From positions 1 to 64,000 of IMG/VR virus record IMGVR_UViG_3300017991_000003: a stretch of 64,000 nucleotides of DNA. The stretch is one strand, 5' to 3'. Shown here in pieces: positions 8,193-47,668 of this stretch. The notes under the pieces were generated by a model. It made no database searches and was not told the DNA's origin. It worked only from the letters and a program-made list of their open reading frames with translations. Each line of letters opens with the position of its first letter. Within the stretch, counting starts at the first letter, position 1. This stretch comes from a virus. Position numbers and translations under genes: made by a program.

Positions 8193-8194
8193 CC

Positions 8195-8812: not shown

Positions 8813-9339
8813 CCGAGACATGGAAAGAGGTCCCGGGCTACCCCGGGTACGAGGTCTCTGATCAGGGGCGGGTACGATCGTGGCGATCCAAACGCTACCC
8901 CGGGAAGCGTCGCAAGAAGCCGTGGGTTCTGCGCCCGTGGACGAACTCGGAGGGGTACCTCCGCGTCAGCCTTTGTAAGGACGGGAAGCGGGATACGCGG
9001 CTTGTGCATCGCGTAGTGCTCTCGGCGTTTGATCCTGACCCGCCCGCAGAGCGGTTCCAGGGAGAGCATCTAGACGGGAGCAAGGACAACAACAAGCTAG
9101 CTAACCTCCGTTGGTCGACTCCAAAGGAGAACAACGCTCGGAAGCATGAGCACGGTACTCAGCCGAAGCGCGGTGAGGAGTCACACCAAGCCCGTCTAAC
9201 CGAGGATCAGGTTCGAGAGATCCGTCGGCTGAAGGCGGAGGAGGGGTGGTCGTTCACCAAGCTGGGCAAGCACTTCGGTGTCAGCGATGTGGCTTGCTCC
9301 AAGATCGTTCGCCGTAAGACCTGGAGTCACGTCAAATGA
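8809..9339 (+). CDS. free-standing HNH homing endonuclease (NUMOD4-like N-terminus)
   Basis: N-terminal W-x-x-VPGYPGYEVSDQGRVRS motif; HNH core EHLDGSKDNNKLANLRWSTPKENN (about 9064..9129). Confidence 0.7.
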   Translation: MTETWKEVPGYPGYEVSDQGRVRSWRSKRYPGKRRKKPWVLRPWTNSEGYLRVSLCKDGKRDTRLVHRVVLSAFDPDPPAERFQGEHLDGSKDNNKLANLRWSTPKENNARKHEHGTQPKRGEESHQARLTEDQVREIRRLKAEEGWSFTKLGKHFGVSDVACSKIVRRKTWSHVK

Positions 9340-11231
9340 GCTATCAGTCAAGCCAGGGTGTGACAGGGCGCGGTGTCCGCAACGATCGGACCCTGAACAC
9401 GTACCCGCACCAGTTCTTCGATCCGAGCACGAGCTACATCCCTCACTCGGTGAAGGAGATGTACCGGTGGTGCCAGTTCCTGTACATGACGCACTCCGAG
9501 ATCGCCCCGGTGATCAACAAGAAGTGCGCGTACGTCATCACCAAGCTGATCTACGACTCCGACGTCGATGCGAACGTCAAGGCGTGGAAGAACCTGCTGG
9601 AAGAGAACATCAACATCCGGGAGATGGAGTACAAGCTCCTCCTGGACTTCGAGGTCTATGGCAACGCCTTCGTCTCGATCCACTACCCCTTCGAGCGCTA
9701 TCTGACCTGCCCTAACGGTGCGTGTAAGCAGCAGCATCCGGCGCGGAACATCGACTGGGAGTACCGAGATCACGAGTTCCGGGCCAAGTGCCCTGAGTGC
9801 GGTACTACGGGGGTGTTCAAGCCGCATGATCGCAAGATCCGCAACCGCCGGCGCATCAAGCTGATCCGCTGGAACCCCAAGTTTGTCAACATCCGCTACA
9901 ACCCGTTTACCGACGACTCGGTCTACATCTACCGGATCCCCAAATGGATTCAGAAGAAGCTGACCACGGTCAAGGAGAACAAGGAGCTGGTGTCGGGCAC
10001 TCCGCTGGTCATCCTCGAGGCGGTGCGTAAGAAGCGCGACGTCGAGCTCGACCGCGACAACATCTACCACTTCAAGAACGCCAGTATCAGTCTCGAGGAC
10101 GACGCCTTTGGCATGCCCCCCATGCTGGCGGTCTTCAAGGACGCCTGGTTGTTCCAGACGTTCCGCCGCGCGCAAGAGGCCATCGCCCTTGAGCACATCC
10201 TCCCGATGACTCTCCTGATCCCGGCGCCCACGGCAGCCGGCGTCTCCCCGCACATGAGCGTGGATCTCGGGGACTGGTCGGATCGGATGAACCTGATCAT
10301 CAAGAAGTGGCGTCGAGACCCCAACGCGCTCTTCACCATCCCGTTCCCGGCTCAGGTCGAGAACGTGCGGGGTGACGCCCAAGCGCTCGCTGTCCACAAC
10401 GACATGACCCAGATCCGCCAGCAGATCACCGGCGGCCTGGACGTGCCCCAGGAGTTCATCTACGGCGGCCTGAACTGGTCTGGCTCGTCGATCAGCCTAC
10501 GAGTGCTCGAGAACCTGTTCATCGGCCGAAAGGAGCAGCTGGATGCGTTCCTCCAGTGGGTGACCGACCGCCTTCAGCGGTTCTGCCTGCTACCGGAGAT
10601 GCACATCCGTCACCGTGACTTCAAGATGGCCGACGACGCTCAGCAGAAGCAGATCGCCCTCAGCCTGCGCCAGACCAACACGATCTCTGACCAGACCTCG
10701 ATCGAGGAGCTGGGCTTCGACTACGAGCGTGAGGAGGCGCGCAAGAGGCGCGAGGAAGAGGATCGACTGGCGGCCATGGAGCGCTCACAGCTTCGCCAGG
10801 CTGAGACGCAAGGCAAGGTCATGGTCCTCCAGGCGGAGTTCCAGGCCAACGCCGAGGCTGCCCAGATGCGCCAGCAGCAAGAGCAAGAGGCGAGGGCCAC
10901 CCAAGAGGGGTACGACACGACTCCTCCGGCGGAGCCAGGCATGGAGGGCGCTCCCGGCGAGCCCGGAGCTCCGATGCCGCCCCAAGGCCCCGGCGACCCT
11001 CAGCAGGCCCCTGACCAGACGGACCCGGTCATTCTCGACATGATGGCCAACCACCTGATCAAGGGGACGCCCCCGCATCTCCTGGAGCAGGAGCTCGCGG
11101 CGCTCGAGACCACGAACCCGGCACTGGCCAAGAAGGTCCGTGAGCGCATCAAGCTGATTCAGAAGCAGACGGCTGACTACAAGCCGCTGCCTGAGCAGAA
11201 ACCCCCGCGTCGCGAGTCGACCCCCGTCTGA
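9336..11231 (+). CDS. large virion-associated protein with internal Cys4 Zn-ribbon and C-terminal coiled-coil/acidic tail (possible portal; unresolved)
   Basis: 631 aa; CPNGAC...CPEC ribbon; C-terminal EEARKRREEEDRLAAMERSQLRQAE coiled-coil-like tail as often seen in portals; no direct portal signature recognised. Confidence 0.3.
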   Translation: MSYQSSQGVTGRGVRNDRTLNTYPHQFFDPSTSYIPHSVKEMYRWCQFLYMTHSEIAPVINKKCAYVITKLIYDSDVDANVKAWKNLLEENINIREMEYKLLLDFEVYGNAFVSIHYPFERYLTCPNGACKQQHPARNIDWEYRDHEFRAKCPECGTTGVFKPHDRKIRNRRRIKLIRWNPKFVNIRYNPFTDDSVYIYRIPKWIQKKLTTVKENKELVSGTPLVILEAVRKKRDVELDRDNIYHFKNASISLEDDAFGMPPMLAVFKDAWLFQTFRRAQEAIALEHILPMTLLIPAPTAAGVSPHMSVDLGDWSDRMNLIIKKWRRDPNALFTIPFPAQVENVRGDAQALAVHNDMTQIRQQITGGLDVPQEFIYGGLNWSGSSISLRVLENLFIGRKEQLDAFLQWVTDRLQRFCLLPEMHIRHRDFKMADDAQQKQIALSLRQTNTISDQTSIEELGFDYEREEARKRREEEDRLAAMERSQLRQAETQGKVMVLQAEFQANAEAAQMRQQQEQEARATQEGYDTTPPAEPGMEGAPGEPGAPMPPQGPGDPQQAPDQTDPVILDMMANHLIKGTPPHLLEQELAALETTNPALAKKVRERIKLIQKQTADYKPLPEQKPPRRESTPV

Positions 11232-11611
11232 TGGGCGCCAAGGGCAGTGGGCGTACACGCATCGAAGCGGACCTGATGCCTCGGGTCCGTGAGGGCTTTG
11301 CACGTCGTCTCCAAGACATGGGGACGATGAGCAAGCTCGGCGCCATCCTGCTCAAGCCCAACCAAGGGACACAGCGCCGCATCCGGCGTGAGACCCTCAA
11401 TATGGACACGGTCGGTGATCAGAAGCGTTGGCAGATGCTGCACAACGACTCCGAGCGCTATGAGGTCATCACGGCCAAGGACAGCAACACCAACCGCGGT
11501 AACTACTGCCACGTGACCTACATCGAGAAGGGTGACGACCTCCCCCTCGTCAAGAGCGAGAGCGAGCTCCGTTCTGAGGATAAAGAGCGCATCAAAGAGG
11601 AGGGCGGCTGA
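11231..11611 (+). CDS. hypothetical protein
   Basis: 126 aa ORF; ATGA-type overlaps at both ends. Confidence 0.5.
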   Translation: MGAKGSGRTRIEADLMPRVREGFARRLQDMGTMSKLGAILLKPNQGTQRRIRRETLNMDTVGDQKRWQMLHNDSERYEVITAKDSNTNRGNYCHVTYIEKGDDLPLVKSESELRSEDKERIKEEGG

Positions 11612-14600
11612 TGCTCGAAGGGCAGCACTTCCGGCAGTTCAAAGAGGCGCTGACTCGGTCGGAGGGCATCGTCAAGGGTATGTTCCCGATCGAGAGCCCC
11701 ACGAAGCGGCTCGAGGTCACGAACCTGCGTTGGACGAACGTAGGCCCGGACGTGGTCTTCGACGTCGAGAAGCAGAAGCAGGCCAAGCTGAAGGAGCAGT
11801 CGATCAACGCTGTTCTGGTCGGTGACGTCACGCTGCGTGAGCTCGGCTCCAAAGGGAAAGTCCTCGACCAGACCAAGCGCTACCCGATCCTCTCGGTGCC
11901 GCACCTGACGATGAACGCTGGCTACATCGTCAACGGCAAAGAGCAGCAGGTCGTCAACCAGTTCCGTCTGCGCCCTGGCATCTACACCCGGTTCACGGGG
12001 GACGACAACGTCGAGGCGTTCCTCAACACCACGGCGATCGGTACTTACAAGATCCTCCTCGACCGCTCTACCGGTGTGATCCGTATGCGGGTCGGCACGG
12101 CCGCACGCACCCCGATCTACTCGGTTCTGATCGCGGCTGGGCTGACTGATGCCGAGATCAAGACACTGCTGGGGACGGAGCTCTACGCGGAGAACAAGCG
12201 GGCGGCCAAGCCGGATCAGGACATCCCCAAGCTCCTGAAGCGGATGCGCCCGTACCTCAACCAGCCGGCGGAGCTGGGCGAGAAGTCAAAGCTCGTGCGT
12301 CAGTATCTGGAGTCGAAGCCCCTCGACCCCGCCGTGAACAAGGTCACGGTGGGCGAGGGTCTCGACCGCATCGACCGCAATGCCCTCGTGGCGGCGATCA
12401 AGAAGGTCCTCAAGCTGTCTAAGGGTGAGGCAGAGCCCGACGACACGGAGAGCCTTGCCTTCAAGTACATCCTCTCGATCGAGGACTTCGTGCCCGAGCG
12501 GCTCCAGAAGGCGGCCGACGGGCTCAAGTACAAGATCCAGGGCGACATGCGCCGCCGGGATGAGATCCGCTTGATCCTCCCGCCCAACCGCCTGAGCCAG
12601 CCGGTGGAGTCCTTTTTCACCACCTCGGAGTTCACGCGCTACTCGAGCCAGCACAACCCGCTGGACATGGCGGCGATCTCGAGCCTGACCACCACCATGG
12701 GTGATGGCGGGATCTCGAGCTCCCATGCGATCACCGACGAGGTGCGTACGATCCACCCGAGCCACTACGGTCTCCTGGATCCCATGCACACCCCGGAGGG
12801 GTGTTGCAGCGCTGACATGGAGGTCATGACGGATCAAGGCTGGGTTGCGTGGCCCGACGTAGACCGGACCACTCGGTTTGCTTGCCTAGACGCTGATCAA
12901 GGCCTTACCTATCACCGCGCCTCCGAGCTACACGTCTACGACCACGACGGGCCTCTCTACGGGTTCAAGTCGGAGACCCTGGAATACCTGCTGACCCCGA
13001 ATCATCGTCAGTGGGTCCGCCCGATTGAGGATCGATCGACGCGTGGGTATCGGTTTGAGACCGCGGAGGAGATGTACGGTAAACGTCGGCGAGTCCGCAT
13101 CGGCGGGCATTTGGCCTACGAGGGTCAGGCCGTCGATACCTGGCAGCTCCCTGAAATCCCTAAGGGAAGCAACTCGCAGAAGGTTTTCCCGGCCTTTGCT
13201 ATTGAGGACTGGGCTGAGTTCCTTGGCTGGTACCTGAGCGAAGGGAGCAGTCGGGGTTACGTGACTTCGATCACGCAGTATGAGGCTGCGAACCCGGAGA
13301 ATGTGGCTCAGATCGAGGCGCTGTTGACACGCATGCAGGTCGCGTGGAGCCGCAGCTCCAGGAGCTTCTCGATCCCAGGTAAGCAGCTAGTCAGCTACCT
13401 GCGTCAGTTCGGCCACTCCGATACCAAGTACATCCCTAAAGAGGCGTTCGACTTCCCGGCGGCGGCGCGTGAGGCCATGCTCGAGGCGCTAATGCTCGGA
13501 GACGGTCGCAAGGGCAAGGGCCGATGCTCTTGCTACTGCACTACATCTGAGCAGCTCGCCAAGGACGTGCAGCGCTTGGCCTTCGGCCTAGGGGTGTCGA
13601 GCAAAATCACCTTTGAGCCGGATACGCGGGAGGAGCACTACCGCGGGTGCTGGATCGTCCATCTCCACGCGCTCACTGAGCGTCAGGTGCTGCCACAAAT
13701 GCGCGCAGCAGGTAACGGCCAGTTCATCGAGGAATACCAAGGCAAGGTCTACTGCGCCACGGTTCCTGGTGGCCTGCTGTACATCCGTCGAGCCGGCAAG
13801 AGCGGTTTCTGGTCCGGCAATAGCAAGGTGGGCGTGACCGGTCACTTGGCCCTGGGCGCGCGCAAGAAGGGGCAGACCCTCTACGTCCCGGTCTATGACG
13901 CCAAGACGGGCAAGCGCGTGGAGAAGTCGGTTCAAGACCTGGACCAGGCCACCATCGCGTTCCCTGATCAGTACGACAACCTGCCCGACAAGCCGGGCGC
14001 GTCGGTCAAGGGCAAGCCCACGACCAAGCTGAAGAAGGTCAAGGCCCGTAGTCGTAACGAGTTCACGGAGGTGAGTCCGTCGGCTGTGGACTACATCTTC
14101 GTCAGCTCCGACAGCTTCTTCAGCTCGACCACGGCTGCGATTCCCTTCCTCCCCAACAACGACGCCAACCGCGTCCTGATGGGTGACAAGCATATCGAGC
14201 AGTCGGTGAACCTTGAGGACCCCGACGCGCCGATGGTCCAGCACCGCATCCGAGGCCGGGGCTATGAGGAGATGTTCGGGGAGCGCCTAGCCCCCCGGGC
14301 TATCGACCCCAAGACCGGCAAGCCCGTCGGCGGAGAGGTCCTCGAGGTCACCAAGACGCATATCACCATCCGGCCGGATGGCGGCGGCCGTCGACGCATC
14401 AAGGTCCCGATCCACGACCACTACCCGCTCAACAGCCGGACGTTCCTGCACGACGAGCCGGTGGTGAAGAAGGGTGACAAGGTCAAGCCTGGCCAGATCC
14501 TGGCCCGCAACAACTTCACCAAGGACGGAGACCTGGCGGTCGGCAAGAACCTCCGAGTCGCCTACACCGCGTACAAGGGCTACAACTTCGAGGACGGCAT

Positions 14601-17600
14601 CGTCATCTCGGAAGGGGCGGCTAAGAAGTTGACCTCGGTGCACAAGTACGAGGCCCGCGTTGAGAAGGGCAAGGGCATCACGGTCGGTGCAGACGCCTAC
14701 GCTGCCGCCTACCCCTCGGAGCTGGAGCATATCCGCGACCGTGCCCGGCGCTACGACGCTGTGGGTGTTATCAAGAAGGGCCAGCAGGTCGTCAAGGGCG
14801 ATGTCCTGATCCCCGCCATCCAGGAGGTCGAGGCGCATCCCGAGTACGACTACAAGCGTCTGCACCGCAGCGCCGGTCTCCGGCACATGGATATCAGCGA
14901 GACCTGGAACCACGACTTCCCTGGTGAGGTCGTAGACGTGGTCAAGACTCGGACATTCGTGAAGGTCGTGGTCAAGAGCAAGGAACCGATGCAGGTCGGT
15001 GACAAGCTGAGCTCGCGCCACGGCGCCAAGGGCATCGTCGTCAAGATCATCCCTGATGAGGAGATGTACAAGGACGAGGAAGGTGCGACGATCGATATCC
15101 TGCTCAACCCGGCGGGGGTGCCTGGTCGCGTCAACACGGGTCAGATGCTCGAAGCCGCGGCCGGCAAGCTGGCCCGTAAGACGGGCAAGAAGTACTACAC
15201 CGACAACTTCAACGAGAAGGGCAGCACGATCAAGAACCTCCGCAAGGAACTAGCGGGGGCCGGGATCTCCGATGAGGAGACGATCGTCGACCCGAAGACG
15301 GGGCACAAGCTCGAACGCGTCCTCGTCGGCGACACGCACATCTACAAACTGACCCACCAGGTCACGGGCAAGATGAAGGCCCGCGCCTCTGTGGGTGAGC
15401 CCTACTCGGTGGACGAGCAGCCCGTGAAGGGATCAGGGTCAGGTGCCCAGCGCATCGGCATCCTCGACACCTTCAGCCTGCTTTCGGGCGACGCCACGGC
15501 GTTCCTCGAGGATGCCTTCGGCCTCAAGAGCCAGAAGAACGACGAGTACTGGCGTGCCCTCCAGACTGGGCAAACACTGCCGCCTCCGAAGACCCCGTTC
15601 ATCGAGGAGAAGTTCGTGGCCATGCTCATTGGCGCGGGCATCGACCTCAAACAGAAAGGCAGTCGCATCGACGCGGGGCCGCTGACGGATGCTGAGGTTC
15701 TCTCAATGTCCAATGGCGCCATCGAGCGCCCGGTGGCGGTCAAGGCATCGAACCTCAAACCCGAGCGTGGCGGGCTCTTCGATCCCGGCAAGACCGGCGG
15801 TCCTGGCGGCAACTACTGGAACCATATCGATCTAGCCTCTGAGGTCGTGCACCCGCTGATGACCGACGCTGCGGCGTCCGTGGGCGGGTTCAAGACCAAG
15901 AAGGAGATGGACCAGATCATCCAGGGCCTGCTCGCGGTCACCGAGGAGGGCGAGGTCGTGGAGGCAGGCACCGCGGGTGCCGTGGCCGGTGGCTCGGGAG
16001 TGAAGCGCCGACTCGCTACGATCAACGTTCCGAGGGCCATCAAAGAGACCGAGTTGGTGGCGGCGACCGCCAAGGGCGCCAAGCTGGACAAGGCCCACAA
16101 ACGGCTGCGCTACCTGCGCTCGCTTCAAGCCAGTGGCCACTCGGCTGTTGATGCCTACATCAACAAGACCCTCCCGGTCATCCCCGCCAAGTTCCGTCAG
16201 ATCGCTCCGATGCCCGACGGCAGCCTGAGTGTGGCTGACGCCAACCACGGCTACCGAGAGGTCCTTCTCATCAACGAGAAGATCAAGCAGCTGAAGGCTC
16301 TCGGAGTCGACGAGCAGAACCTGCGAGCACTCAACAAGGCTCTGGCGGACGCTACGGCCGGCCTCGTAGGCACGGCGCCTCCGATCAGCCGAGGCAAGGT
16401 CTTCCGCGGCTTCGTCAGTCAGATCCACGGCCCGACGCCTAAGTCGGGTCTGGCGCAGTCGAAGCTCATGGGACGCAACCAAGACCTGAGCGGCCGGTCG
16501 ACTGTGATCCCCAACCCCAAGCTGGGGATGGACGAGGTCGGTATCCCGGCTGAGATCGCCTACAAGATCTACAAGCCCTTCGTCATCAAGCGTCTCGTCA
16601 CCGCCGGCCACAAGCCGCTAGATGCCCGCTCCATGGTCGAGCAGGGCCACCCGGCCGCCCGTCGTGCGCTCGAGGTGGAGGCTGAAGACCGCCCGGTGCT
16701 GATGAACCGCGCGCCCTCACTGCACAAGTTCAACATCCAGGCCCTCAAGCCCCGGGTGATCGACGGTAAGGCGGTCGAGGTCAACCCGCTCATCGTGAGC
16801 GGCTACAACATGGACTTCGACGGGGATACGGCCGGTCTACACGTTCCGGTCTCTGAAGAGGCCCGGCGCGAGGCTCGTGAGAAGCTGCTCCCGTCGCGCA
16901 ACCTGTTCAGCCCTCGGGAGGAGTTCGTGGTCCATGCCCCGACCAAGGAGACGATCCTCGGGGTGTACCTGATGACTACGCCCAAGGGACTTGCCTCCAA
17001 GTCGTTCTCCTCCGACCAGGAGATGGTCAAGGCATACCAGGCCAAGGAGATCAAGGTCAACGAAGCGGTGAAGGTCCAAGGCGCTGTGACCTGCGCCGGT
17101 CAGGCCATCTTCAACACGGCGCTTCCTATGGATCTGCGCGTGGGTCGTACGTCGGTGACCGGTCCGCGTTTGAGCCAGCTCCTGGTTCGCATCGGTCGGC
17201 AGTTGGGCCCCGACCGGGCCGCTCAAGTGATCTCGAAGATCAAGGACCTAGGCAACCACTACGTGACCGAGGTCGGGTTCTCCGTGAGTCTCCGGGACCT
17301 TGAGCTTGATACGAGCAAGCGGGATCAGATCGTCAACAAGCTCAAACGAGACGCCAAGACCAAGGGGTTCGATGAGGCGGCTGGCGAGGCGCTCGAAGAC
17401 ATCGCAGCGCTGCTGGCGTCGGCAGAGGATAACCGGTTCGTGGAGGCTGGCATCACATCCGGAGCCCTAGGCTCCAAAGGCATCCACCGGATGCTGGCGA
17501 GCACCGTGGCAGTGACGGATCACAAGGGCAAGACGGTCCCGATCCCGGTCGAGAAGTCCTATGCCGAGGGCCACGATCTAGGTACCTACTTGGGTACGAC

Positions 17601-18765
17601 CCCCGGCGCCCGGAAGGGCTTGATCGACAAAGGCCTGAGCGTGGCGGATACGGGCTACTTCAGCCGCATGCTCGTCAACAGCTCGATCGAGAACCAGGTG
17701 ACCGTCGCGGACTGCGGAACCAAGTCGGGCCAGGATCTGCCGCTCAACTCCCAGGAGCTCGCGCACCGCTACGGCGCCGAGGGCCGCTACCGCAACGTCT
17801 TGATCACCTCGGACATCGCCCGCCGCCTGCGCTCCCTAGGCCAGAAAACGGTCAAGGTCCGTAGCCCTCTGACTTGTCAGGCGCAGAAGGGCGTCTGTCA
17901 GAAGTGCTTCGGCCTACTCGAGGATGGCAAACCGCCTCGCATCGGTTATCACGTCGGTGCTCTGGCCGGCCAGACCCTGGGTGAGGTGGCTACCCAGCTG
18001 ACCCTGCGCAGCTTCCACACTGGTGGCGCTGTTGGTGGGCCCGACCTGGGTTTTGAGCGCATCCGTCAGATCATGGAGATGCCTCAAAGCATCCAAGGCA
18101 AAGCCATCCTGAGCGAGGCCACCGGCCAGGTGACGCGCATCGACACAGCGCCGGCGGGCGGTAGTTACGTCTACGTCGGCTCCGAGAAGCACTTCATCCC
18201 CAAGGAGCTGGGGGTAGCGGTGAGTCGAGGCCAGCGCGTGAAGGCGGGGGATCAGCTGAGCAAGTCGGGTGTGATCAAGCCTCAGGAGCTGCTAGATACG
18301 ACAGGGGACATCAATCGTGTCCGTACCCATCTGATCAACGAGCTGGATGCTAACTACAGAGCGGCCGGCAAGAAGGTCAACCGCCGGATCTTCGAGACGG
18401 TGGTCAAGCCTCTTACTGACCGTGCGACTGTGACGGACGTCGGAGACGCCGGCCGCCATTTCCCGGTACATGCCGGGGAGGTCATGCCTGTCAACCAGAT
18501 CGAGGAGATGAACCGCAAGCTCAAGCAGCGCCGTCTTCGCCCGATCCAGTTCGAGCCTATGATCATGGGTATCAAGCAGGCCCCGTTCCAGAGCGAGGAC
18601 TTCGTGGGAACGCTCACCCATGAGAAGCTCAAGCGGACCCTCACCGAGGCCCCTAGCCTGGGTAAAGCCACGGACCTTGTGCGCGGCCACCCGATGGCCC
18701 GCCTGGGTCTCACCAACCTCCGATCCATCGAAGCCATCAAACGACCTCAAGGGGTGAAGCGATGA
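11611..18765 (+). CDS. fused beta-beta' multisubunit DNA-dependent RNA polymerase, intein-containing
   Basis: Beta motifs: SQHNPLD...HPSHYG...HTPEG, IPFLPNNDANRVLMG, GDKLSSRHGAKGIVV (14998..15033), VNTGQMLE, GAQRIGILDTFSLL. Beta' motifs in the same frame: NHIDLASEVVHPL, NMDFDGD (about 16807..16827), PSLHKFNIQA. Beta' N-terminal Zn-ribbon appears absent. Confidence 0.85.
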   Translation: MLEGQHFRQFKEALTRSEGIVKGMFPIESPTKRLEVTNLRWTNVGPDVVFDVEKQKQAKLKEQSINAVLVGDVTLRELGSKGKVLDQTKRYPILSVPHLTMNAGYIVNGKEQQVVNQFRLRPGIYTRFTGDDNVEAFLNTTAIGTYKILLDRSTGVIRMRVGTAARTPIYSVLIAAGLTDAEIKTLLGTELYAENKRAAKPDQDIPKLLKRMRPYLNQPAELGEKSKLVRQYLESKPLDPAVNKVTVGEGLDRIDRNALVAAIKKVLKLSKGEAEPDDTESLAFKYILSIEDFVPERLQKAADGLKYKIQGDMRRRDEIRLILPPNRLSQPVESFFTTSEFTRYSSQHNPLDMAAISSLTTTMGDGGISSSHAITDEVRTIHPSHYGLLDPMHTPEGCCSADMEVMTDQGWVAWPDVDRTTRFACLDADQGLTYHRASELHVYDHDGPLYGFKSETLEYLLTPNHRQWVRPIEDRSTRGYRFETAEEMYGKRRRVRIGGHLAYEGQAVDTWQLPEIPKGSNSQKVFPAFAIEDWAEFLGWYLSEGSSRGYVTSITQYEAANPENVAQIEALLTRMQVAWSRSSRSFSIPGKQLVSYLRQFGHSDTKYIPKEAFDFPAAAREAMLEALMLGDGRKGKGRCSCYCTTSEQLAKDVQRLAFGLGVSSKITFEPDTREEHYRGCWIVHLHALTERQVLPQMRAAGNGQFIEEYQGKVYCATVPGGLLYIRRAGKSGFWSGNSKVGVTGHLALGARKKGQTLYVPVYDAKTGKRVEKSVQDLDQATIAFPDQYDNLPDKPGASVKGKPTTKLKKVKARSRNEFTEVSPSAVDYIFVSSDSFFSSTTAAIPFLPNNDANRVLMGDKHIEQSVNLEDPDAPMVQHRIRGRGYEEMFGERLAPRAIDPKTGKPVGGEVLEVTKTHITIRPDGGGRRRIKVPIHDHYPLNSRTFLHDEPVVKKGDKVKPGQILARNNFTKDGDLAVGKNLRVAYTAYKGYNFEDGIVISEGAAKKLTSVHKYEARVEKGKGITVGADAYAAAYPSELEHIRDRARRYDAVGVIKKGQQVVKGDVLIPAIQEVEAHPEYDYKRLHRSAGLRHMDISETWNHDFPGEVVDVVKTRTFVKVVVKSKEPMQVGDKLSSRHGAKGIVVKIIPDEEMYKDEEGATIDILLNPAGVPGRVNTGQMLEAAAGKLARKTGKKYYTDNFNEKGSTIKNLRKELAGAGISDEETIVDPKTGHKLERVLVGDTHIYKLTHQVTGKMKARASVGEPYSVDEQPVKGSGSGAQRIGILDTFSLLSGDATAFLEDAFGLKSQKNDEYWRALQTGQTLPPPKTPFIEEKFVAMLIGAGIDLKQKGSRIDAGPLTDAEVLSMSNGAIERPVAVKASNLKPERGGLFDPGKTGGPGGNYWNHIDLASEVVHPLMTDAAASVGGFKTKKEMDQIIQGLLAVTEEGEVVEAGTAGAVAGGSGVKRRLATINVPRAIKETELVAATAKGAKLDKAHKRLRYLRSLQASGHSAVDAYINKTLPVIPAKFRQIAPMPDGSLSVADANHGYREVLLINEKIKQLKALGVDEQNLRALNKALADATAGLVGTAPPISRGKVFRGFVSQIHGPTPKSGLAQSKLMGRNQDLSGRSTVIPNPKLGMDEVGIPAEIAYKIYKPFVIKRLVTAGHKPLDARSMVEQGHPAARRALEVEAEDRPVLMNRAPSLHKFNIQALKPRVIDGKAVEVNPLIVSGYNMDFDGDTAGLHVPVSEEARREAREKLLPSRNLFSPREEFVVHAPTKETILGVYLMTTPKGLASKSFSSDQEMVKAYQAKEIKVNEAVKVQGAVTCAGQAIFNTALPMDLRVGRTSVTGPRLSQLLVRIGRQLGPDRAAQVISKIKDLGNHYVTEVGFSVSLRDLELDTSKRDQIVNKLKRDAKTKGFDEAAGEALEDIAALLASAEDNRFVEAGITSGALGSKGIHRMLASTVAVTDHKGKTVPIPVEKSYAEGHDLGTYLGTTPGARKGLIDKGLSVADTGYFSRMLVNSSIENQVTVADCGTKSGQDLPLNSQELAHRYGAEGRYRNVLITSDIARRLRSLGQKTVKVRSPLTCQAQKGVCQKCFGLLEDGKPPRIGYHVGALAGQTLGEVATQLTLRSFHTGGAVGGPDLGFERIRQIMEMPQSIQGKAILSEATGQVTRIDTAPAGGSYVYVGSEKHFIPKELGVAVSRGQRVKAGDQLSKSGVIKPQELLDTTGDINRVRTHLINELDANYRAAGKKVNRRIFETVVKPLTDRATVTDVGDAGRHFPVHAGEVMPVNQIEEMNRKLKQRRLRPIQFEPMIMGIKQAPFQSEDFVGTLTHEKLKRTLTEAPSLGKATDLVRGHPMARLGLTNLRSIEAIKRPQGVKR
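12802..13821 (+). mobile_element. intein with LAGLIDADG homing-endonuclease domain inserted after the conserved TPEG of the beta module
   Basis: Begins CCSADMEVMTDQG (block A-like), TPNH (block B-like), two LAGLIDADG-like helices (LGWYLSEGS, EALMLGDGRKG), ends ...FWSGN followed by Ser; flanks (HTPEG / SKVGV...IPFLPNNDANR) restore beta-subunit colinearity. Boundaries within a few codons. Confidence 0.65.
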
Positions 18766-19124
18766 CCAAGCGCAGCGCAGCCTACATCGAGGGTCTCCTG
18801 AAGGAGGCCGCAGGTAAAAAGAAGAAGAAGGAGAAAGACAGCCAGCCTAAGAGCTTGACTCGCTCCGACATCGACAAGGCCCGACTGAACCCGGACCTGA
18901 TGCGTCGTATGCGGATGCGTTCGAGCGTGGCTGTCCCCCTCAAAGGCGATGAGCTGCTTCAGGTGCGCCGGCTGGCGCGTCGGAACCTTCCCTTGATGCG
19001 TCAGCGCAACCCCAAGCTGACCGAGAAGGCCCTTTACGATCGCCTGGTGGCGCTGATCCAGAGCCGCCGGCCCGAGATGCGCAAGAAGCTCCTGGCAGCT
19101 GTAGCCACGGAGTACGGGACCTAG
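18762..19124 (+). CDS. hypothetical small basic protein
   Basis: 120 aa ORF; ATGA overlap with RNAP stop; Lys/Arg-rich. Confidence 0.5.
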   Translation: MTKRSAAYIEGLLKEAAGKKKKKEKDSQPKSLTRSDIDKARLNPDLMRRMRMRSSVAVPLKGDELLQVRRLARRNLPLMRQRNPKLTEKALYDRLVALIQSRRPEMRKKLLAAVATEYGT

Positions 19125-19126
19125 GA

Positions 19127-20699: not shown

Positions 20700-20720
20700 A
20701 CTGGACCTTAGAGTCTTCCC

Positions 20721-21074: not shown

Positions 21075-21075
21075 C

Positions 21076-23135: not shown

Positions 23136-24218
23136 ATGGCCGGCTCCACGGGGCCGTACTCGCGTTCTCAACTCTGCCGCAAGTACGGGATCACTGACAG
23201 GACCCTGAGGGCCCTCGAGGATCGAGGGACTCTTGTGCTCACGTGGTACCCCCGCAACGGGCTCATGGTCACCGACCTTGAGTCGAATGACCAAAAGCGC
23301 ATTCTGGCGATGGCGCGCAATCACGTCATGTCATTTGGGAGGGCGCAGGGGATTCCCCGGCTGCCCTTCCTGCGCTTCCTGTTCCTTCGTTTTATCCAGG
23401 TCCCGGTGGAGGATCTGTACGCGGAGCTTCTGGACAGGAACATGATTGCGGCCCGTAGCTTCAAGCTCCCTCAGCTGAAGAAGATGCACAAGGCCTTTGT
23501 GGAGGCGGTCCCGCGCCCGCTTCAGAAGAAGGTACGGGCGCATGCCGAGGCCTCGACCGCCACGGAGAAGAAGCAGCTTGACGTGCTGCTCAAGGTCTGC
23601 GGCATCTACGAGGCCTACCACAACCCACAGCAGGAGCAGAGCTTCAAGTACCTGTCGGATCCTGAGATCAAACTAGGCATCGACATGGGTTTGAGCTCTC
23701 GCGCCAAACTGCCTGAGATTGCTGACTTCATCGCAGACGTGGCGGGCTTCTCGATCAACCTCGAGGCGCTCCTGTTCTACCACGTCCTCTACCACGACAT
23801 CAGCTTCCTGGACAACGACGAGATCCAGGCCTACCTGAAGGGCCTGAAGCCGTCGCATCGGGACCTCCTAGGTAAAGCCGTCGGCTCCACGATCCCCGAG
23901 CTCCGCATGGCTCTCGGCTTCGTCGAGGACATGTCGATCGAGGACACCGTGGTCCAGCTTCGGAACGCGGTCCTAACCAAGACCTCGGCGACCCTGCTTG
24001 CCCCCGGCTCCCAAGAGAACACCCGAGAGTTCAGCGCTCTCTTGCGCAACTTCGCCTACTTGGTCGATCGCTCGAATATCGAGGGTACCGGCAAAGGAGG
24101 GGCCGCCGCGTCTATGCCCGACGTGTTCAGCCAGTTCGAGATGAAGATCTCGCAGATGGATGGGGCTGGCTTGTTTCGGCTCCCCTCCGCCGAAGGAGAA
24201 GAACTGAACCATGGATGA
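23136..24218 (+). CDS. hypothetical protein (360 aa)
   Basis: ORF ends overlapping the terminase start. Confidence 0.55.
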   Translation: MAGSTGPYSRSQLCRKYGITDRTLRALEDRGTLVLTWYPRNGLMVTDLESNDQKRILAMARNHVMSFGRAQGIPRLPFLRFLFLRFIQVPVEDLYAELLDRNMIAARSFKLPQLKKMHKAFVEAVPRPLQKKVRAHAEASTATEKKQLDVLLKVCGIYEAYHNPQQEQSFKYLSDPEIKLGIDMGLSSRAKLPEIADFIADVAGFSINLEALLFYHVLYHDISFLDNDEIQAYLKGLKPSHRDLLGKAVGSTIPELRMALGFVEDMSIEDTVVQLRNAVLTKTSATLLAPGSQENTREFSALLRNFAYLVDRSNIEGTGKGGAAASMPDVFSQFEMKISQMDGAGLFRLPSAEGEELNHG

Positions 24219-26040
24219 TGCCACGTTCGGGGGTACGCCGCTCTCCTCGAGCAATGTGGAGCTCCTTGAGGATCTGCACGAGCTCTTCCGAGATAACGAC
24301 GACATCACTGACGAGCAGTGGGAGGAGCTAGACTGGTTCGCCTACAACCAGGAAGCTGAAGAGGCCGCAGAGGAGTCTGCGGACCGGGCTGATCCGATCA
24401 ACCCGCCTCCGGGCCTTGCTGAGGGCCTGGCTCACGGCGGCGTCATTATGGCCACCATCTCGGATATGGTGGAGAACCTCCTGACGGTCGACCAGGAGCC
24501 TTTCAGCTTCGTCGGACGGGAGTACCTGAAGGGGCTGTACGACCCGGTAGAAGAGTACCCGGAGGGGTGCCGTAACCAGATCTGGATCGCCGGCCGTCAG
24601 GTCGAGAAGTCAACCACCCAGAGCGCCAAGTCCGTGGCCTTGGGGGCGCTGACCAAGAGCTACAAGACCCTGTACGTGGCGCCCCGCTTCGACCAGGTCC
24701 GGGTCTTCAGCCAGCAGCGCTTCAAGCCCATGTGCGAGGACAGCCCGAACCTCGCCCCGTGGATCAAGCCCAGCCGGACGCTGTGGCAGGTCTCCGCCCG
24801 AGAGTTCATGAACGGGGCGTTCTACAACTTCCGGAGCTGTTACCTGAGCGCCGACAACGCTCGAGGCATTACCTGCCACCACCTCAACGTCGACGAGATC
24901 CAGGACATCGTCTCTGATGCTATCCCTGTTCTGGAGGAGTGCCAAAGCCACGCTACGGCCGAACTGCGGTTCCGCTCCTATGCCGGGACGCCCAAGACGA
25001 CCTCCAATGTCCTGAGCCGGCGGTACGAGAACAGCTGCCAGTTCGAGTGGTTGAGTCAGTGCGCGGCGTGCAACCACTGGAACTTCATGGACGAGCGGAT
25101 CGTGGGCGACGACTTCTTCGCCTGCGTCCGGTGCGGCAAGGAGATCAACCCCAAGGTGGGGCAGTTCGTGCCTAAGCGCCCCGAGCTCCTCGACAAGTGC
25201 TGGGGGTTCCGAATCAGTCAGCTGATGGTCCCGTTCCAGAGTCACGCGGACATCATCGCCAAGCGGGACGACCCTAACTACAGCCGCCAGAAGTACTTCA
25301 ACGAGTGCTTGGGTCTGCCATACGACGAGGGCCAGCTGGTCCTGACCGAGGCTGTGATGCGGGACGCCTGCGACGCGGATCGAGGGATGTGGACGATCCA
25401 ACAGTGCCGCGAGCTGGCCGACCGCGGCGTGCCGCTCTTCGGCGGGGTCGATTACGGGCCGGGTGAGGGTGAGGATCCTTCTTACACAGTGCTGACTATC
25501 GGCTGGTGGGCGACCGCCGGCCACTTCGAAGTCCTCTGGATGCGCAGACTGGTTGGCGATGAGTCGAACCTGGCCCTCCAGACCAAGGTCATCAACCAGT
25601 ACTTCACCGAGGCCCGTGTCCGCTGGATGGGGGCTGACTGGGGGTTCGGTGCTGCTATCAACAAGCAGCTGATCCACGAGCACGGCTGGCACCGCGTGGC
25701 TCATCAGCGTTGCCTGCTCGAGTTCCAGTACGGCGGCCAGAAGCAGATGGCTTCCTGGAACGCCAAGGCGGAGCGGTACATCATCGACCGCAACCAGGGC
25801 ATGGAGAAGCTGATCGACTCGATCCGCACCAATCAGGTCCGATTCTTCCGAATGGAGGAGATGTCCCAGTTCGTTGACGACTTCACGACTATCTACGTGG
25901 AGTTCGATGAGCGGCGGAACACCCGGAAGTACGACCACGACCTGCCGGACGATGCTTTCCACTCGGTCAACTACGCCTACATGGCGGGCCTCCAGCACCG
26001 GAATAAGCTGGTCCCGAGCTGGCTGACTCCGCTGGATTGA
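24211..26040 (+). CDS. terminase large subunit (ATPase + RNaseH-like nuclease) with inserted Zn-ribbon
   Basis: Deviant Walker A IAGRQVEKST, Walker B-like HHLNVDEIQD, C-terminal GVDYGPGEGEDPSYTVLTIGW acidic nuclease-type motif; CAACNHW...CVRCGK ribbon. Confidence 0.55.
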   Translation: MDDATFGGTPLSSSNVELLEDLHELFRDNDDITDEQWEELDWFAYNQEAEEAAEESADRADPINPPPGLAEGLAHGGVIMATISDMVENLLTVDQEPFSFVGREYLKGLYDPVEEYPEGCRNQIWIAGRQVEKSTTQSAKSVALGALTKSYKTLYVAPRFDQVRVFSQQRFKPMCEDSPNLAPWIKPSRTLWQVSAREFMNGAFYNFRSCYLSADNARGITCHHLNVDEIQDIVSDAIPVLEECQSHATAELRFRSYAGTPKTTSNVLSRRYENSCQFEWLSQCAACNHWNFMDERIVGDDFFACVRCGKEINPKVGQFVPKRPELLDKCWGFRISQLMVPFQSHADIIAKRDDPNYSRQKYFNECLGLPYDEGQLVLTEAVMRDACDADRGMWTIQQCRELADRGVPLFGGVDYGPGEGEDPSYTVLTIGWWATAGHFEVLWMRRLVGDESNLALQTKVINQYFTEARVRWMGADWGFGAAINKQLIHEHGWHRVAHQRCLLEFQYGGQKQMASWNAKAERYIIDRNQGMEKLIDSIRTNQVRFFRMEEMSQFVDDFTTIYVEFDERRNTRKYDHDLPDDAFHSVNYAYMAGLQHRNKLVPSWLTPLD

Positions 26041-42985: not shown

Positions 42986-42991
42986 GCTGAG

Positions 42992-43142: not shown

Positions 43143-43174
43143 GTGCTCACCGAGGGCTTCTCGATAAGGGGCCG

Positions 43175-44753: not shown

Positions 44754-44775
44754 GGCACTGGCTCCCAGTGTCAGA
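44754..44775. promoter_or_regulatory. 22-nt conserved element TGGCACTGGCTCCCAGTGTCAG (copy 2), palindromic core ACTGG-N3-CCAGT
   Basis: Exact duplicate of 26116..26137; overlaps sigma-factor stop codon. Confidence 0.4.
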
Positions 44776-45619
44776 GATTGGGATCGATGTCCTCGAGCAG
44801 CACCCACAGCTCTCGAAGCCCCTCGTTCTCGATCTGCCTCACACGCTCCCGAGTCCGCCGGTAGAAGCGTGCGAGCTCCCCATAGGGGGTCGGGTTCTCG
44901 TGCCCGAACCCGTAGTGCCGGCGGATGATGTCCTCAGCCTCCGGCTTCAGCTGCGCCAGGGCCCAGTTCAAGAGGTCCCGGTTCTCCTGATTGATGACCC
45001 GATCGAGCATCGCCGGGGCCGGTCCTAGCTGAACCCCCTGCGCTGTGTCCTGGGTGAGCCGGCCGCACGCCTCGGTGATCTCGGTGTCCAGGGTCACCAA
45101 CCGACTATCCCGAGCGTGCCTGTACTTCCGGATCTTGTCCGGGTCCCAGCCGAGCTCCTCGAAGATCTCCTCCTCGTCCGGGTAGTAGCCGTTGGTCTTC
45201 AACATCCGGTACGCCTTGGTCTGGTAGTCGGTGACCAGGGACCGGTGGCGAATAGGCTTGGCTGAGAGGTTGCGGTACTCCCGACGGACCTCGGCGTCGA
45301 TCCACCAGACGGCGTAGGTACTGAACTTGACGTGGCTCTTCGTGCCCTTGACGACCCGGTCAAGGTCGAAATCCCTGAGCGCCTTCATAAGCCCCACGAA
45401 CCCCGCGGAGATCATGTCGTGATAGCGCGCGTCCTTGGCCTCGACGAAGCGCTGCACTCGTCGGATTACCAGGCGGACATTGTGTTCGACCAGCCGCTGA
45501 GCTGCGGCATCATCCCCCTCGCGTAGCGCTTTGACGAGCAGCTCGCGTTCTTCCTCCTTCGACAGGACTGGGTGATCAGCTGCCTTGTGTAGGGCGATCT
45601 CGTCGAAGGACCAGTCCAC
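44771..45619 (-). CDS. sigma-70-family RNA polymerase sigma factor
   Basis: Region 2: LVEHNVRLVIRRVQRF...GFVGLMKALRDFD...KFSTYAVWWI; region 4 helix-turn-helix: NPTPYGELARFYRRTRERVRQIENEGLREL. Confidence 0.75.
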   Translation of the reverse strand: MDWSFDEIALHKAADHPVLSKEEERELLVKALREGDDAAAQRLVEHNVRLVIRRVQRFVEAKDARYHDMISAGFVGLMKALRDFDLDRVVKGTKSHVKFSTYAVWWIDAEVRREYRNLSAKPIRHRSLVTDYQTKAYRMLKTNGYYPDEEEIFEELGWDPDKIRKYRHARDSRLVTLDTEITEACGRLTQDTAQGVQLGPAPAMLDRVINQENRDLLNWALAQLKPEAEDIIRRHYGFGHENPTPYGELARFYRRTRERVRQIENEGLRELWVLLEDIDPNL

Positions 45620-47609: not shown

Positions 47610-47611
47610 AG

Positions 47612-47654: not shown

Positions 47655-47668
47655 GACCTCTGGGGGAC

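What the first reader, a model, noticed from the sequence alone, without database searches (positions are those of the whole stretch)
11611..18765. Single-polypeptide fused beta-beta' multisubunit RNA polymerase inside a virion-morphogenesis operon
One uninterrupted 2384-codon frame carries hallmark beta motifs (HPSHYG/TPEG, IPFLPNNDANR, GDKLSSRHGAKG) and then beta' motifs (NHIDLASEVVHPL, NMDFDGD, PSLHKFN). Multisubunit RNAPs in phages are rare and those I know are split into several genes; a fused beta-beta' version, apparently lacking the beta' N-terminal Zn-ribbon, translationally coupled to flanking structural-type genes, is unusual and suggests a virion-packaged or morphogenesis-co-expressed polymerase. 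No alpha or omega homologue was seen in this window.
Basis: partly seen in the sequence, partly recalled or inferred. Interest (0 to 1): 0.9.

Follow-up and report, generated by a model that had tools for sequence, protein, structure and literature searches.

The report
Fused phage RNA polymerase carrying an intein
A phage gene next to the portal gene encodes both large subunits of a bacterial-type RNA polymerase as one protein, interrupted by a self-splicing intein; the enzyme is probably carried in the virion, and its family is large but its fused form has not been described.

Summary
The 2384-codon ORF at 11611-18765 (+) is real. It encodes a bacterial-type RNA polymerase with β joined directly to β′.

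It splits the invariant β "TPEG" motif. Splicing would give a 2044-aa, about 223-kDa enzyme.

The β′ N-terminal Zn ribbon is indeed absent; the second Zn site is kept. The elements that bind σ are present, and a σ70-family gene lies at 44771-45619 (-). No α or ω homologue was found in the window.

The gene sits between the portal and terminase/capsid genes, and this order is conserved in related loci.

The protein is not unique. At least 89 clusters of fused homologues exist on metagenomic phage contigs of up to about 200 kb, and about half of all hits carry inteins at recurrent sites. Cultured relatives (Salmonella phage Arash, Vibrio phage D69) have a partly split version. In published Arash virion proteomics the polymerase is the most-detected protein.

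Verdict: the reading is largely supported. This is a new variant of a known kind. Virion packaging is inferred, not shown.

The parts
11611..18765 (+). Precursor ORF, 2384 aa: β N-extein, then intein, then the rest of β fused directly to β′
   Evidence: an identical protein (P0001) is found on 174.7-kb and 193-kb metagenomic contigs
11611..12801 (+). β module, N-terminal part (aa 1-397): compact lobe/protrusion and fork, ending at ...HTPEG
   Evidence: aa 93-397 align to cyanobacterial β 103-427 (E 9.5e-19); aa 250-397 align to E. coli β 416-566; Pfam Rpb2_3
12802..13821 (+). Intein of 340 aa (aa 398-737) with a LAGLIDADG homing endonuclease. It has Cys1, block B TPNH (aa 462-465), LGWYLSEG (aa 538), LMLGDG (aa 627), and ends ...WSGN followed by Ser+1
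   Evidence: absent from Arash, D69 and P0002-P0004, where the flanks are contiguous; Pfam LAGLIDADG_3 at 23.5 bits against a cutoff of 22.5; AF2 model with pLDDT 91.9 matches the TliVMA, PI-SceI and PI-PkoII inteins, E down to 1.3e-17; same-site inteins are 51-56% identical; GC3 is 0.735 against 0.84 in the exteins
13822..15660 (+). β module, C-terminal part (aa 738 to about 1350): IPFLPNNDANR, flap with flap-tip segment, the double-psi β-barrel (DPBB) motif GDKLSSRHGAKG (nt 14998-15033), and the C-terminal clamp piece ending ...AGIDLKQKG
   Evidence: Pfam Rpb2_6 5.5e-60; alignment to bacterial β 612-1066 includes the flap-tip region; the NCBIfam rpoB profile is matched to position 1075 of 1096 at aa 1329
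15661..18762 (+). β′ module (aa about 1351-2384), joined to β without a linker
   Evidence: TIGR02386 rpoC 1.9e-154; PDB alignments; AF2 model of aa 1264-2384 has pLDDT 87.8 and TM 0.77-0.83 to bacterial β′ chains; the junction is gapless in 39 family members
15757..15858 (+). Site of the lost Zn ribbon: KPERGGLFDPGKTGGPGGNYWNHIDLASEVVHPL, a Cys-free loop where bacteria have the 4-Cys Zn-binding domain
   Evidence: 0 Cys in aa 1380-1480; β′ residues 25-62 and then 178 onward align, so the query is about 55 aa shorter between them; 0-1 Cys in all 39 family members
16807..16827 (+). Catalytic Mg-binding motif NMDFDGD (aa 1733-1739)
   Evidence: the three Asp are invariant in alignment A3
17713..17907 (+). 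Retained second Zn site of β′: C2035, C2089, C2096, C2099
   Evidence: these are four of the only five Cys in the spliced protein; all four are invariant in 39 family members
17998..18027 (+). Trigger-loop motif LTLRSFHTGG; no SI3-type insertion
   Evidence: contiguous alignment to Gram-positive-type β′ 469-1157
9336..11231 (+). Portal protein homologue (631 aa), two genes upstream
   Evidence: tblastn to Arash gp204 'portal protein' at 1.6e-68 and to its D69 counterpart at 7e-80; conserved upstream of the RNAP in 9 metagenomic loci
11231..11611 (+). Small conserved ORF (126 aa) between portal and RNAP; its TGA stop overlaps the RNAP ATG
   Evidence: homologues at the same position in 8 loci; small ORFs at the same position in Arash (gp205) and D69; no family hit
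18762..19124 (+). Small basic ORF (120 aa); its ATG overlaps the RNAP stop (ATGA)
24211..26040 (+). Terminase large subunit
   Evidence: Pfam GpA_ATPase 3.4e-9; tblastn to Arash gp1 at 1.6e-32
31801..33063 (+). Major capsid protein homologue
   Evidence: tblastn to Arash gp226 'major capsid protein' at 3.8e-23
44771..45619 (-). Phage σ70-family factor (282 aa, regions 1.2-4.2), the likely promoter-specificity partner
   Evidence: Pfam Sigma70_r2 1.5e-9, r4 1.7e-8, r3 weak; SigA/RpoS chains at E about 1e-21; homologue of Arash gp196

Best explanation
The gene encodes the catalytic core of a phage-owned, bacterial-type RNA polymerase as one chain. A reduced β of about 1010 aa is fused head-to-tail to a reduced β′ of about 1030 aa.

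Shown from sequence and models: the primary product carries a 340-aa intein with a LAGLIDADG endonuclease, inserted after the residue equivalent to E. coli β Gly566. All catalytic and nucleic-acid-handling elements are kept. These are the β double-psi β-barrel (DPBB) lysine motif, NMDFDGD, the bridge helix and trigger loop, the second Zn site, the β′ clamp helices and the β flap tip. The β′ Zn ribbon and the lineage-specific insertions are lost.

Inferred: the intein must splice out to restore the TPEG-SKVGV fork segment near the active site, giving a 2044-aa, about 223-kDa enzyme. Covalent linkage replaces the α-dimer scaffold, since no α or ω was seen. Promoter recognition is supplied by phage σ70-type factors.

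Inferred from conserved gene position and from proteomics of a relative: the enzyme is made with the head proteins, packaged into the capsid and delivered with the DNA. This lets early phage genes be transcribed without the host polymerase. Newly made enzyme plus another phage σ then carries on.
For: Identity as a β-β′ fusion.

Intein.

The fusion is genuine and ancestral. 89 of 120 homologue clusters are full fusions, and the junction is gapless and conserved down to 33% identity.

Zn ribbon loss and retention of the second Zn site.

σ partner and σ-binding elements.

No α or ω in the window.

Morphogenesis context. The portal, small ORF, RNAP ... terminase order is conserved in 9 metagenomic loci and in Arash and D69. 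No host-type promoters or terminators were found within 6-24 kb.

Packaging. In Arash virion mass spectrometry, Gp206 (β+β′N) has 128 unique peptides and 3516 spectra, the highest of all proteins. Gp216 (β′C) has 1210 spectra and σ Gp10 has 467 (PMC10585845).
Against: - Packaging is extrapolated from a phage whose RNAP is only about 30% identical.
- The Arash preparation also yielded primase, helicases and ribonucleotide reductase, so carry-over is possible. The authors say so themselves.
- The σ found in this window is the homologue of Arash gp196, which is not in the virion list. No gp10-like σ is present in the window.
- Only 64 kb of a 175-193-kb genome was examined, so α, ω, a second RNAP or other σ factors could lie elsewhere.
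- The intein has Gly instead of the usual penultimate His. Splicing and polymerase activity are untested.
Confidence: 0.7

Rival explanations
1. The polymerase is phage-encoded and active but is not a virion component. It is co-transcribed with the head genes or made earlier, and works only inside the cell, for example for middle or late transcription with phage σ factors. Host RNAP transcribes the early genes.
For: Phage σ factors can also redirect host RNAP. The window σ corresponds to the Arash σ that was not detected in virions. The Arash virion preparation contained obvious non-structural enzymes.
Against: Placement directly after the portal gene is conserved across very divergent relatives. 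The RNAP pieces ranked first and fifth by spectra in Arash, above the major capsid protein for Gp206. Contaminants rarely reach that level.
Confidence: 0.25
2. The ORF is a cellular rpoBC gene: bacterial contamination, a chimeric assembly, or a recent capture of a Helicobacter/Wolbachia-type fused gene.
For: The best-scoring NCBIfam model is the fused β/β′ equivalog NF007172.
Against: The score is 523 bits against a cutoff of 5372, and rpoB and rpoC also fall far below their cutoffs. The gene is flanked by portal, terminase and capsid genes on two independent assemblies and on IMG/VR contigs. All close homologues lie on phage contigs.
Confidence: 0.02
3. The single long ORF is an artefact: a sequencing or assembly frameshift or lost stop joined two genes. 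Alternatively, it is a decaying, inactive polymerase relic used as a structural protein.
For: Relatives such as Arash and D69 do have the gene in two pieces.
Against: 89 independent clusters share the full-length architecture, and the β/β′ junction is gapless and conserved. An identical protein is recovered from separate assemblies. The catalytic Asp triad, the β Lys motif and the four Zn-site Cys are invariant across the family. The split in Arash lies elsewhere, within β′ near aa 1846-1866, not at the β/β′ junction.
Confidence: 0.03

Closest known systems
Salmonella phage Arash gp206 + gp216 (and the Vibrio phage D69/D181/D148 homologues)
   Same: Same lineage. The portal, small ORF, RNAP gene order is shared. 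β is fused to the N-terminal half of β′. Phage σ factors are encoded. Portal, terminase, capsid and tail proteins are homologous. The Arash polypeptides were detected abundantly in virions (PMC10585845).
   Different: Identity is only 28-34%. In Arash the β′ is cut into two genes, 1525 aa and 606 aa, separated by about 4.7 kb of other genes. There is no intein at the TPEG site. The published annotation calls gp206 simply 'subunit beta' and does not note the fusion.
mReC, the multisubunit-RNAP-encoding Caudovirales of Weinheimer & Aylward 2020 (PMC7481178)
   Same: Tailed-phage contigs encode β and β′ that cellular HMMs can recognise. One mReC contig comes from the same metagenome (3300018080). 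One mReC subgroup has adjacent β of about 1000 aa and β′ of about 900 aa, whose sum is close to the 2044 aa here.
   Different: In the two parts of their Supplementary Data 2 that list the metagenomic phage entries, and which I read, every entry has β and β′ as separate proteins. No fusion, intein, σ or portal linkage is described. Whether the fused family falls inside the mReC clade was not tested.
Jumbo-phage (phiKZ/AR9-type) virion and non-virion multisubunit RNAPs
   Same: They are phage-encoded relatives of cellular β/β′. They have no α or ω. One copy is packaged and injected for early transcription (PMC7598289, PMC7824862).
   Different: Those enzymes are fragmented into 4-5 polypeptides, are highly divergent and use no σ factor. 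According to that review, jumbo phages that encode RNAPs lack σ, and jumbo phages that encode σ lack RNAPs. The enzyme here is fused, close to bacterial sequence, and accompanied by σ70-type genes.
Naturally fused rpoBC of Helicobacter and Wolbachia (NCBIfam NF007172, NF011417); artificial E. coli β-β′ tethering (own knowledge)
   Same: The β C-terminus is joined to the β′ N-terminus in one chain. This is consistent with the two ends lying close together in the enzyme.
   Different: Those are full-size cellular enzymes of about 2840-2890 aa with α and ω. The scores here are about a tenth of the family cutoffs, so the fusion is independent.
Single-polypeptide two-barrel virion RNAPs of crAss-like phages and the tape-measure-fused RNAP of Thermus phage P23-45 (PMC10770324)
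   Same: They are single-chain, virion-delivered polymerases with two double-psi β-barrels, encoded among structural genes.
   Different: They have no recognisable β/β′ domains beyond the barrels. Here the full Pfam β/β′ complement is present, and the β′ module reaches TM about 0.8 to bacterial β′ chains.
Inteins in RNA polymerase second-largest subunits of eukaryotes and giant viruses (PMC1635734); VMA/PI-SceI-type endonuclease inteins
   Same: These are inteins with a LAGLIDADG endonuclease inserted at the most conserved sites of the fork and hybrid-binding regions near the active site. The fold matches the TliVMA, PI-SceI and PI-PkoII inteins.
   Different: The host gene is a phage bacterial-type β. 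The penultimate residue is Gly, not His. One intein family occupies several different sites of the same gene across relatives.

Membership tests
Bacterial-type multisubunit RNAP catalytic core (β + β′) | β double-psi β-barrel (DPBB) with the conserved GDK..RHG.KG lysine motif | tested here: met
   GDKLSSRHGAKG at aa 1130-1141; Pfam Rpb2_6 5.5e-60
Bacterial-type multisubunit RNAP catalytic core (β + β′) | β′ double-psi β-barrel (DPBB) with the NADFDGD Mg-binding triad | tested here: met
   NMDFDGD at aa 1733-1739; the three Asp are invariant in the family alignment; Pfam Rpb1_2 1e-28
Bacterial-type multisubunit RNAP catalytic core (β + β′) | Bridge helix and trigger loop region, and overall β′ fold | tested here: met
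   Pfam Rpb1_5 5.2e-26; contiguous alignment to β′ 469-1157; AF2 model TM 0.77-0.83 to bacterial β′ chains
Bacterial-type multisubunit RNAP catalytic core (β + β′) | β′ N-terminal Zn ribbon (four Cys) | tested here: not met
   No Cys in aa 1380-1480 and the segment is about 55 aa shorter; the same holds in 39 family members
Bacterial-type multisubunit RNAP catalytic core (β + β′) | Second β′ Zn site (four Cys) | tested here: met
   C2035, C2089, C2096 and C2099 are invariant in the family
Bacterial-type multisubunit RNAP catalytic core (β + β′) | α dimer and ω as assembly subunits | tested here: not met
   No RNA_pol_A_bac, RNA_pol_L or Rpb6 hits in 60 other window ORFs. Only 64 kb of the roughly 175-193-kb genome was searched, and divergent homologues could escape Pfam.
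Bacterial-type multisubunit RNAP catalytic core (β + β′) | σ-dependent initiation: β′ clamp helices, β flap tip and a σ70-family factor | tested here: inconclusive
   The clamp-helix and flap-tip segments align without gaps. A σ70-family gene is present. Physical interaction and promoter use cannot be tested here.
Cellular fused rpoBC (NF007172 / NF011417 equivalogs) | Score above the curated equivalog cutoff | tested here: not met
   523 bits against 5372, and 457 bits against 4632
mReC lineage (Weinheimer & Aylward 2020) | Tailed-phage contig with β and β′ detectable by cellular HMMs | tested here: met
mReC lineage (Weinheimer & Aylward 2020) | β and β′ as separate genes, as in the listed members that I read | tested here: not met
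   Here they form one ORF. The mReC table lists distinct proteins for β and β′ in every entry I read.
mReC lineage (Weinheimer & Aylward 2020) | Placement inside the mReC clade in an RNAP phylogeny | not tested
Jumbo-phage phiKZ/AR9-type RNAPs | β and β′ split into 4-5 polypeptides, with no σ | tested here: not met
   There is a single ORF and a σ70-type gene is present.
Intein (HINT splicing domain with nested LAGLIDADG endonuclease) | In-frame insertion that is absent from orthologues, at a conserved site | tested here: met
   The site is empty in P0002-P0004, Arash and D69, and the extein flanks are contiguous there.
Intein (HINT splicing domain with nested LAGLIDADG endonuclease) | N-terminal Cys/Ser, block B TxxH, C-terminal Asn, and a +1 Ser/Thr/Cys | tested here: met
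   Cys398, T462-P-N-H465, Asn737 and Ser738 are present, and all are invariant in 11 same-site inteins. The usual penultimate His is Gly, also invariant.
Intein (HINT splicing domain with nested LAGLIDADG endonuclease) | HINT fold plus a two-motif LAGLIDADG domain | tested here: met
   AF2 pLDDT 91.9; Foldseek hits to the TliVMA, PhoVMA, PI-SceI and PI-PkoII inteins at E 1e-17 to 1e-10, plus mini-intein HINT hits; Pfam PF14528 above its cutoff
Intein (HINT splicing domain with nested LAGLIDADG endonuclease) | Protein splicing and homing activity | not testable with these tools
   This needs expression and a cleavage assay.

The most novel reading that the evidence does not exclude
This family is a natural single-chain bacterial-type RNA polymerase core. 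It would fold and work without α or ω, pair with phage σ factors, and be loaded into the capsid beside the portal for injection with the DNA. That would be a further independent route to a virion polymerase, alongside the N4, phiKZ and crAss/P23-45 solutions. Its maturation would depend on protein splicing, and inteins have repeatedly colonised its active-site motifs.
Probability: 0.4. Interest if true: 0.8.

Novelty: new variant of a known kind. Interest (0 to 1): 0.6.

Why it matters
A compact, σ-dependent, bacterial-type polymerase of 2044 aa on one chain would be a tractable minimal model. It could show what α, ω and the β′ Zn ribbon actually contribute, and it could serve as an orthogonal transcription tool.

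If the enzyme is packaged, it adds a new way for phages to become independent of host RNA polymerase. It would also connect the metagenomic RNAP-encoding phages with cultured, testable phages (Arash, Vibrio D69).

The family is also unusually rich in inteins inserted at polymerase active-site motifs. It is a useful data set for intein homing and for splicing-dependent enzyme maturation.

Tried and rejected
- **Nucleotide search:** megablast of the gene against 50,697 phage records gave no match. Only protein-level relatives exist.
- **Flanking ORFs:** PHROGs and Pfam on the flanking ORFs gave nothing except an HNH endonuclease, the terminase and the σ factor. The neighbours were instead identified by tblastn to Arash and D69.
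- **mReC membership:** I looked for the window's relatives in the mReC supplementary tables. The shared sample numbers turned out to be reference capsid entries, not mReC contigs, so membership could not be settled.
- **Small ORFs as ω or α:** I considered that the small ORFs flanking the gene might be cryptic ω or α subunits. They have no family hits and their sequences are basic and low in complexity. I dropped this for lack of evidence.
- **Promoters:** a scan for host-type promoters and terminators found 1 promoter-like site against 2.7 expected. Inspection of 18 intergenic regions showed no convincing shared phage promoter motif. I abandoned this line.
- **Second σ:** a search for a second σ in the window, like Arash gp10, found none.
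- **tRNAs:** none in the window.
- **Literature:** searches for a described fused β-β′ polymerase or for RNAP inteins in this phage lineage found none. One search call failed on syntax.


Full report
**1. The observation**

The + strand carries one ORF from 11611 to 18765, with 2384 codons and a single terminal stop.

Pfam finds RNA_pol_Rpb2 domains 3 and 6, followed by Rpb1 domains 1, 2, 3 and 5, with E down to 5.5e-60. NCBIfam finds rpoC at 1.9e-154 and rpoB at 6.2e-108. Bacterial models score far above archaeal ones, so the enzyme is of the bacterial type.

The start codon overlaps the stop of the preceding ORF (TGATG) and is preceded by GGAGG. The next ORF starts within the stop (ATGA).

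**2.

Relatives align to aa 8-400 and 737-1846 of the product, with the two blocks contiguous in their own genes.

The 340 residues between them (aa 398-737, nt 12802-13821) show intein signatures:
- They start with Cys.
- They contain the block-B TxxH motif (TPNH).
- They contain two LAGLIDADG motifs (LGWYLSEG and LMLGDG).
- They end in ...WSGN followed by Ser.

Close homologues P0002 to P0004 read HTPEG-Q/M-xxGVT at this place, with no insert. P0005, P0006 and P0017 carry a 51-56% identical insert at exactly the same point.

Pfam LAGLIDADG_3 passes its cutoff. An AlphaFold model has pLDDT 91.9. It matches the endonuclease-bearing TliVMA, PhoVMA, PI-SceI and PI-PkoII inteins (E 1e-17 to 1e-10) and also mini-intein HINT domains.

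Cys1, the block-B Thr and His, the first LAGLIDADG motif and the terminal W-x-G-N are invariant among 11 same-site inteins. The penultimate residue is Gly rather than the usual His.

The insertion point corresponds to E. coli β Gly566, because aa 250-397 align to chain residues 416-566. The intein's GC3 (0.735) is lower than that of the exteins (0.84), as expected for a mobile insert.

Removing the intein gives a 2044-aa, 223-kDa protein. This is the normal length of intein-free family members.

**3. Anatomy of the spliced polymerase**

*β module (about 1010 aa).*
- aa 93-397 align to the lobe, protrusion and fork region of bacterial β.
- aa 808-1259 align to β 612-1066. This stretch includes the flap with its tip segment and the GDKLSSRHGAKG barrel motif.
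- The rpoB profile runs to within about 20 positions of its end at aa 1329.

*Junction.* β′ residues 25-62 align from aa 1361. So β ends and β′ begins at about aa 1350, with no linker. In 39 family members this junction is gapless and conserved.

*Lost Zn ribbon.* Directly after KPERGGLF, bacteria have the four-Cys Zn ribbon. This protein has the Cys-free loop DPGKTGGPGGNYW, and the segment is about 55 aa shorter. The same is true of all 39 relatives.

*Retained elements.*
- The spliced protein has only five cysteines. Four of them (C2035, C2089, C2096, C2099) form the second β′ Zn site and are invariant.
- The clamp-helix segment that binds σ region 2 aligns well.
- The β′ C-terminal half aligns end to end with Gram-positive-type β′, with an intact trigger loop and no SI3-type insertion.
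- An AlphaFold model of aa 1264-2384 (pLDDT 87.8) superposes on bacterial β′ chains with TM 0.77-0.83.

**4. Genomic context**

The 631-aa ORF at 9336-11231 is the homologue of the annotated portal proteins of Salmonella phage Arash and Vibrio phage D69.

Downstream lie, in order:
- the terminase large subunit (24211-26040);
- homologues of Arash virion proteins gp220 and gp222;
- the major capsid protein homologue (31801-33063);
- homologues of Arash structural proteins gp233, gp234, gp236 and gp237, probably tail or baseplate components.

The order portal, small ORF, RNAP, three ORFs, terminase recurs in nine IMG/VR loci whose polymerases are 40-78% identical to this one. The region has no excess of host-type promoters or terminators.

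The minus-strand block from 43 kb onward holds replication and recombination genes and one σ70-family gene at 44771-45619. That gene has regions 2, 3 and 4 and is SigA/RpoS-like at E about 1e-21. No α or ω domain is detectable in 60 other window ORFs.

The window is the first 64 kb of a 174,660-bp ENA contig. The same protein also sits on a 193,018-bp contig.

**5. The family**

A search of 5.8 billion proteins returned 173 hits with E ≤ 1e-20, of which 120 were listed. All but a handful of those are phage-type.

Of the 120 listed:
- 89 are full β-β′ fusions. Most are 1975-2100 aa, and longer when they carry inserts.
- 28 are Arash-like β+β′N proteins that stop near mature position 1482.

In Arash the gene is cut within β′, near aa 1846-1866 of this protein. 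It forms gp206 (1525 aa) and gp216 (606 aa), separated by about 4.7 kb of other genes.

58 of the 120 carry large inserts at a few recurrent positions. These lie in or beside the most conserved motifs:
- TPEG;
- the KNL..AY segment near mature position 641;
- GDKL|SRHG.KG;
- NP.G|..R.N.G;
- K|SQKND;
- NADFDGD;
- the trigger-loop FHTGG.

Up to three inserts occur in one protein. Junction residues are typical of inteins. Inteins at different sites are 24-30% identical over their full length to the window's intein, with E 1e-21 to 1e-37. One intein family has therefore spread over several sites of this gene.

**6. Mechanism**

*Shown.* This is a complete bacterial-type catalytic core on one chain, interrupted by an intein with all splicing residues except the penultimate His.

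*Inferred from established RNAP knowledge.*
- The insert sits in the fork region next to the active site, so the precursor should be inactive until spliced.
- The covalent β-β′ join can stand in for the α-dimer scaffold.
- Initiation needs σ. The phage supplies one, and the docking elements are conserved.

*Inferred from context and a relative.* The enzyme is probably packaged. In the published Arash virion proteome, Gp206 is the most-detected protein (128 unique peptides, 3516 spectra). Gp216 has 1210 spectra, and the σ Gp10 has 467 spectra at 100% coverage (PMC10585845).

*Caveats.*
- That preparation also contained primase, helicases and ribonucleotide reductase.
- The σ in this window is the homologue of Arash gp196, which was not detected in virions.
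- No gp10-like σ is present in the window.

**7. Comparison with what is known**

*mReC.* Weinheimer & Aylward (2020) described metagenomic tailed phages with β and β′. The metagenomic phage entries that I read in their tables list the two as separate proteins: β 986-1521 aa and β′ 887-1391 aa. In their text, fusion is mentioned only for crAss-like phages.

*Arash.* The Arash paper annotates gp206 as "subunit beta" and does not note the fusion.

*Jumbo phages.* Reviews describe jumbo-phage RNAPs as fragmented and σ-less. They state that jumbo phages encoding σ factors lack their own RNAPs. The lineage here has both.

*Cellular fusions.* Cellular fused rpoBC genes are unrelated in detail, because scores are a tenth of their cutoffs.

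*Inteins.* Inteins in RNAP second-largest subunits are known from eukaryotes and giant viruses, at fork and hybrid-binding sites (PMC1635734). In my searches I found no report of them in phage bacterial-type RNAP genes.

**8. Verdict**

Full fusion, loss of the Zn ribbon, association with σ and the load of inteins together make it a new variant of a known kind.

Packaging into virions is the most likely reading, at about 0.55-0.6 on its own, but it is not demonstrated. I score interest at 0.6.

Noticed in passing
window 8809-9339 (+), also 7836-8192 (+): A free-standing HNH homing endonuclease gene (PHROG 59, E 1.5e-46; NUMOD4/HNH_3) lies immediately upstream of the portal gene. Together with a 118-aa ORF, it is present only in this phage and its 100%-identical IMG/VR fragment. 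It is absent from the 78%-identical relative L006. Its GC3 (0.72) is lower than that of the RNAP exteins (0.84).
   Followed up: partly
relatives P0002-P0114; mature-protein positions about 397, 641, 794, 829, 967, 1220-1270, 1399-1440, 1795-1834: The polymerase family is an intein hot spot. 58 of 120 homologue clusters carry one to three inserts of 145-570 aa at recurrent sites inside the most conserved RNAP motifs. The two closest relatives of the window protein (80% and 76% identity) have an empty TPEG site but carry an intein in GDKL|SRHGAKG instead.
   Followed up: partly
relatives P0006, P0026, P0030, P0035, P0037, P0040, P0082: Inserts at the β′ catalytic motif have non-canonical junctions. 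One example is NADFDGN|C...VVYD|TMGVHVP. Canonical splicing there would leave Asn in place of the third Mg-binding Asp. Some of these inserts begin with Ala, Asp or Gln, or end in Asp. This is unexplained.
   Followed up: no
L002 (Arash) 9956-21124; L001 (D69) 7914-14965; D181/D148: In the cultured relatives the β′ part is cut in two near the position equivalent to aa 1846-1866 of this protein. In Arash the gap holds nine unrelated genes, mostly on the opposite strand. In Vibrio phages D181 and D148 it holds an annotated homing endonuclease. This suggests the gene was fragmented by insertion of mobile elements.
   Followed up: partly
window 20721-21074 and 21076-21429 (+): Two adjacent 117-aa ORFs are 39% identical to each other, so they are tandem paralogues. 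They lie in the head module after a 298-nt gap (20423-20720), which is the largest intergenic gap in the + strand block.
   Followed up: no
window 19127-20422 (+): A 431-aa ORF is conserved just downstream of the polymerase in several family loci. By eye, its C-terminus has short repeated β-strand-like segments (…LTIRVSSYTLEVDGAITQTAGGNMTINASDMDVNLG). It has no family hit. In Arash the corresponding position is held by gp217, annotated 'DNA helicase', which is abundant in virions. No similarity to gp217 was detected.
   Followed up: partly
window 31702-31800, 33064-33158, 47610-47668: G+C-rich perfect hairpins (for example GGCCCTTCGGGGCC and GGCGCCCTTCGGGGTGCC) sit in the short gaps flanking the major capsid gene and in the minus-strand block. 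They were not picked up as canonical terminators because they lack T-runs.
   Followed up: no
window 43175-63841 (-): The divergent minus-strand block encodes a UvrD-type helicase, a ResIII/DEAD helicase, RuvC and a RecA-like protein, along with the σ factor. This is a replication and recombination module that abuts the structural module at a convergent junction (42986-43174).
   Followed up: no
PMC7481178 Supplementary Data 2: One mReC subgroup has adjacent β (about 1000-1020 aa) and β′ (about 890-905 aa) genes whose summed length is close to the 2044-aa fused protein. One such contig comes from the same metagenome (3300018080) as this window. It could be the unfused sister group.
   Followed up: no
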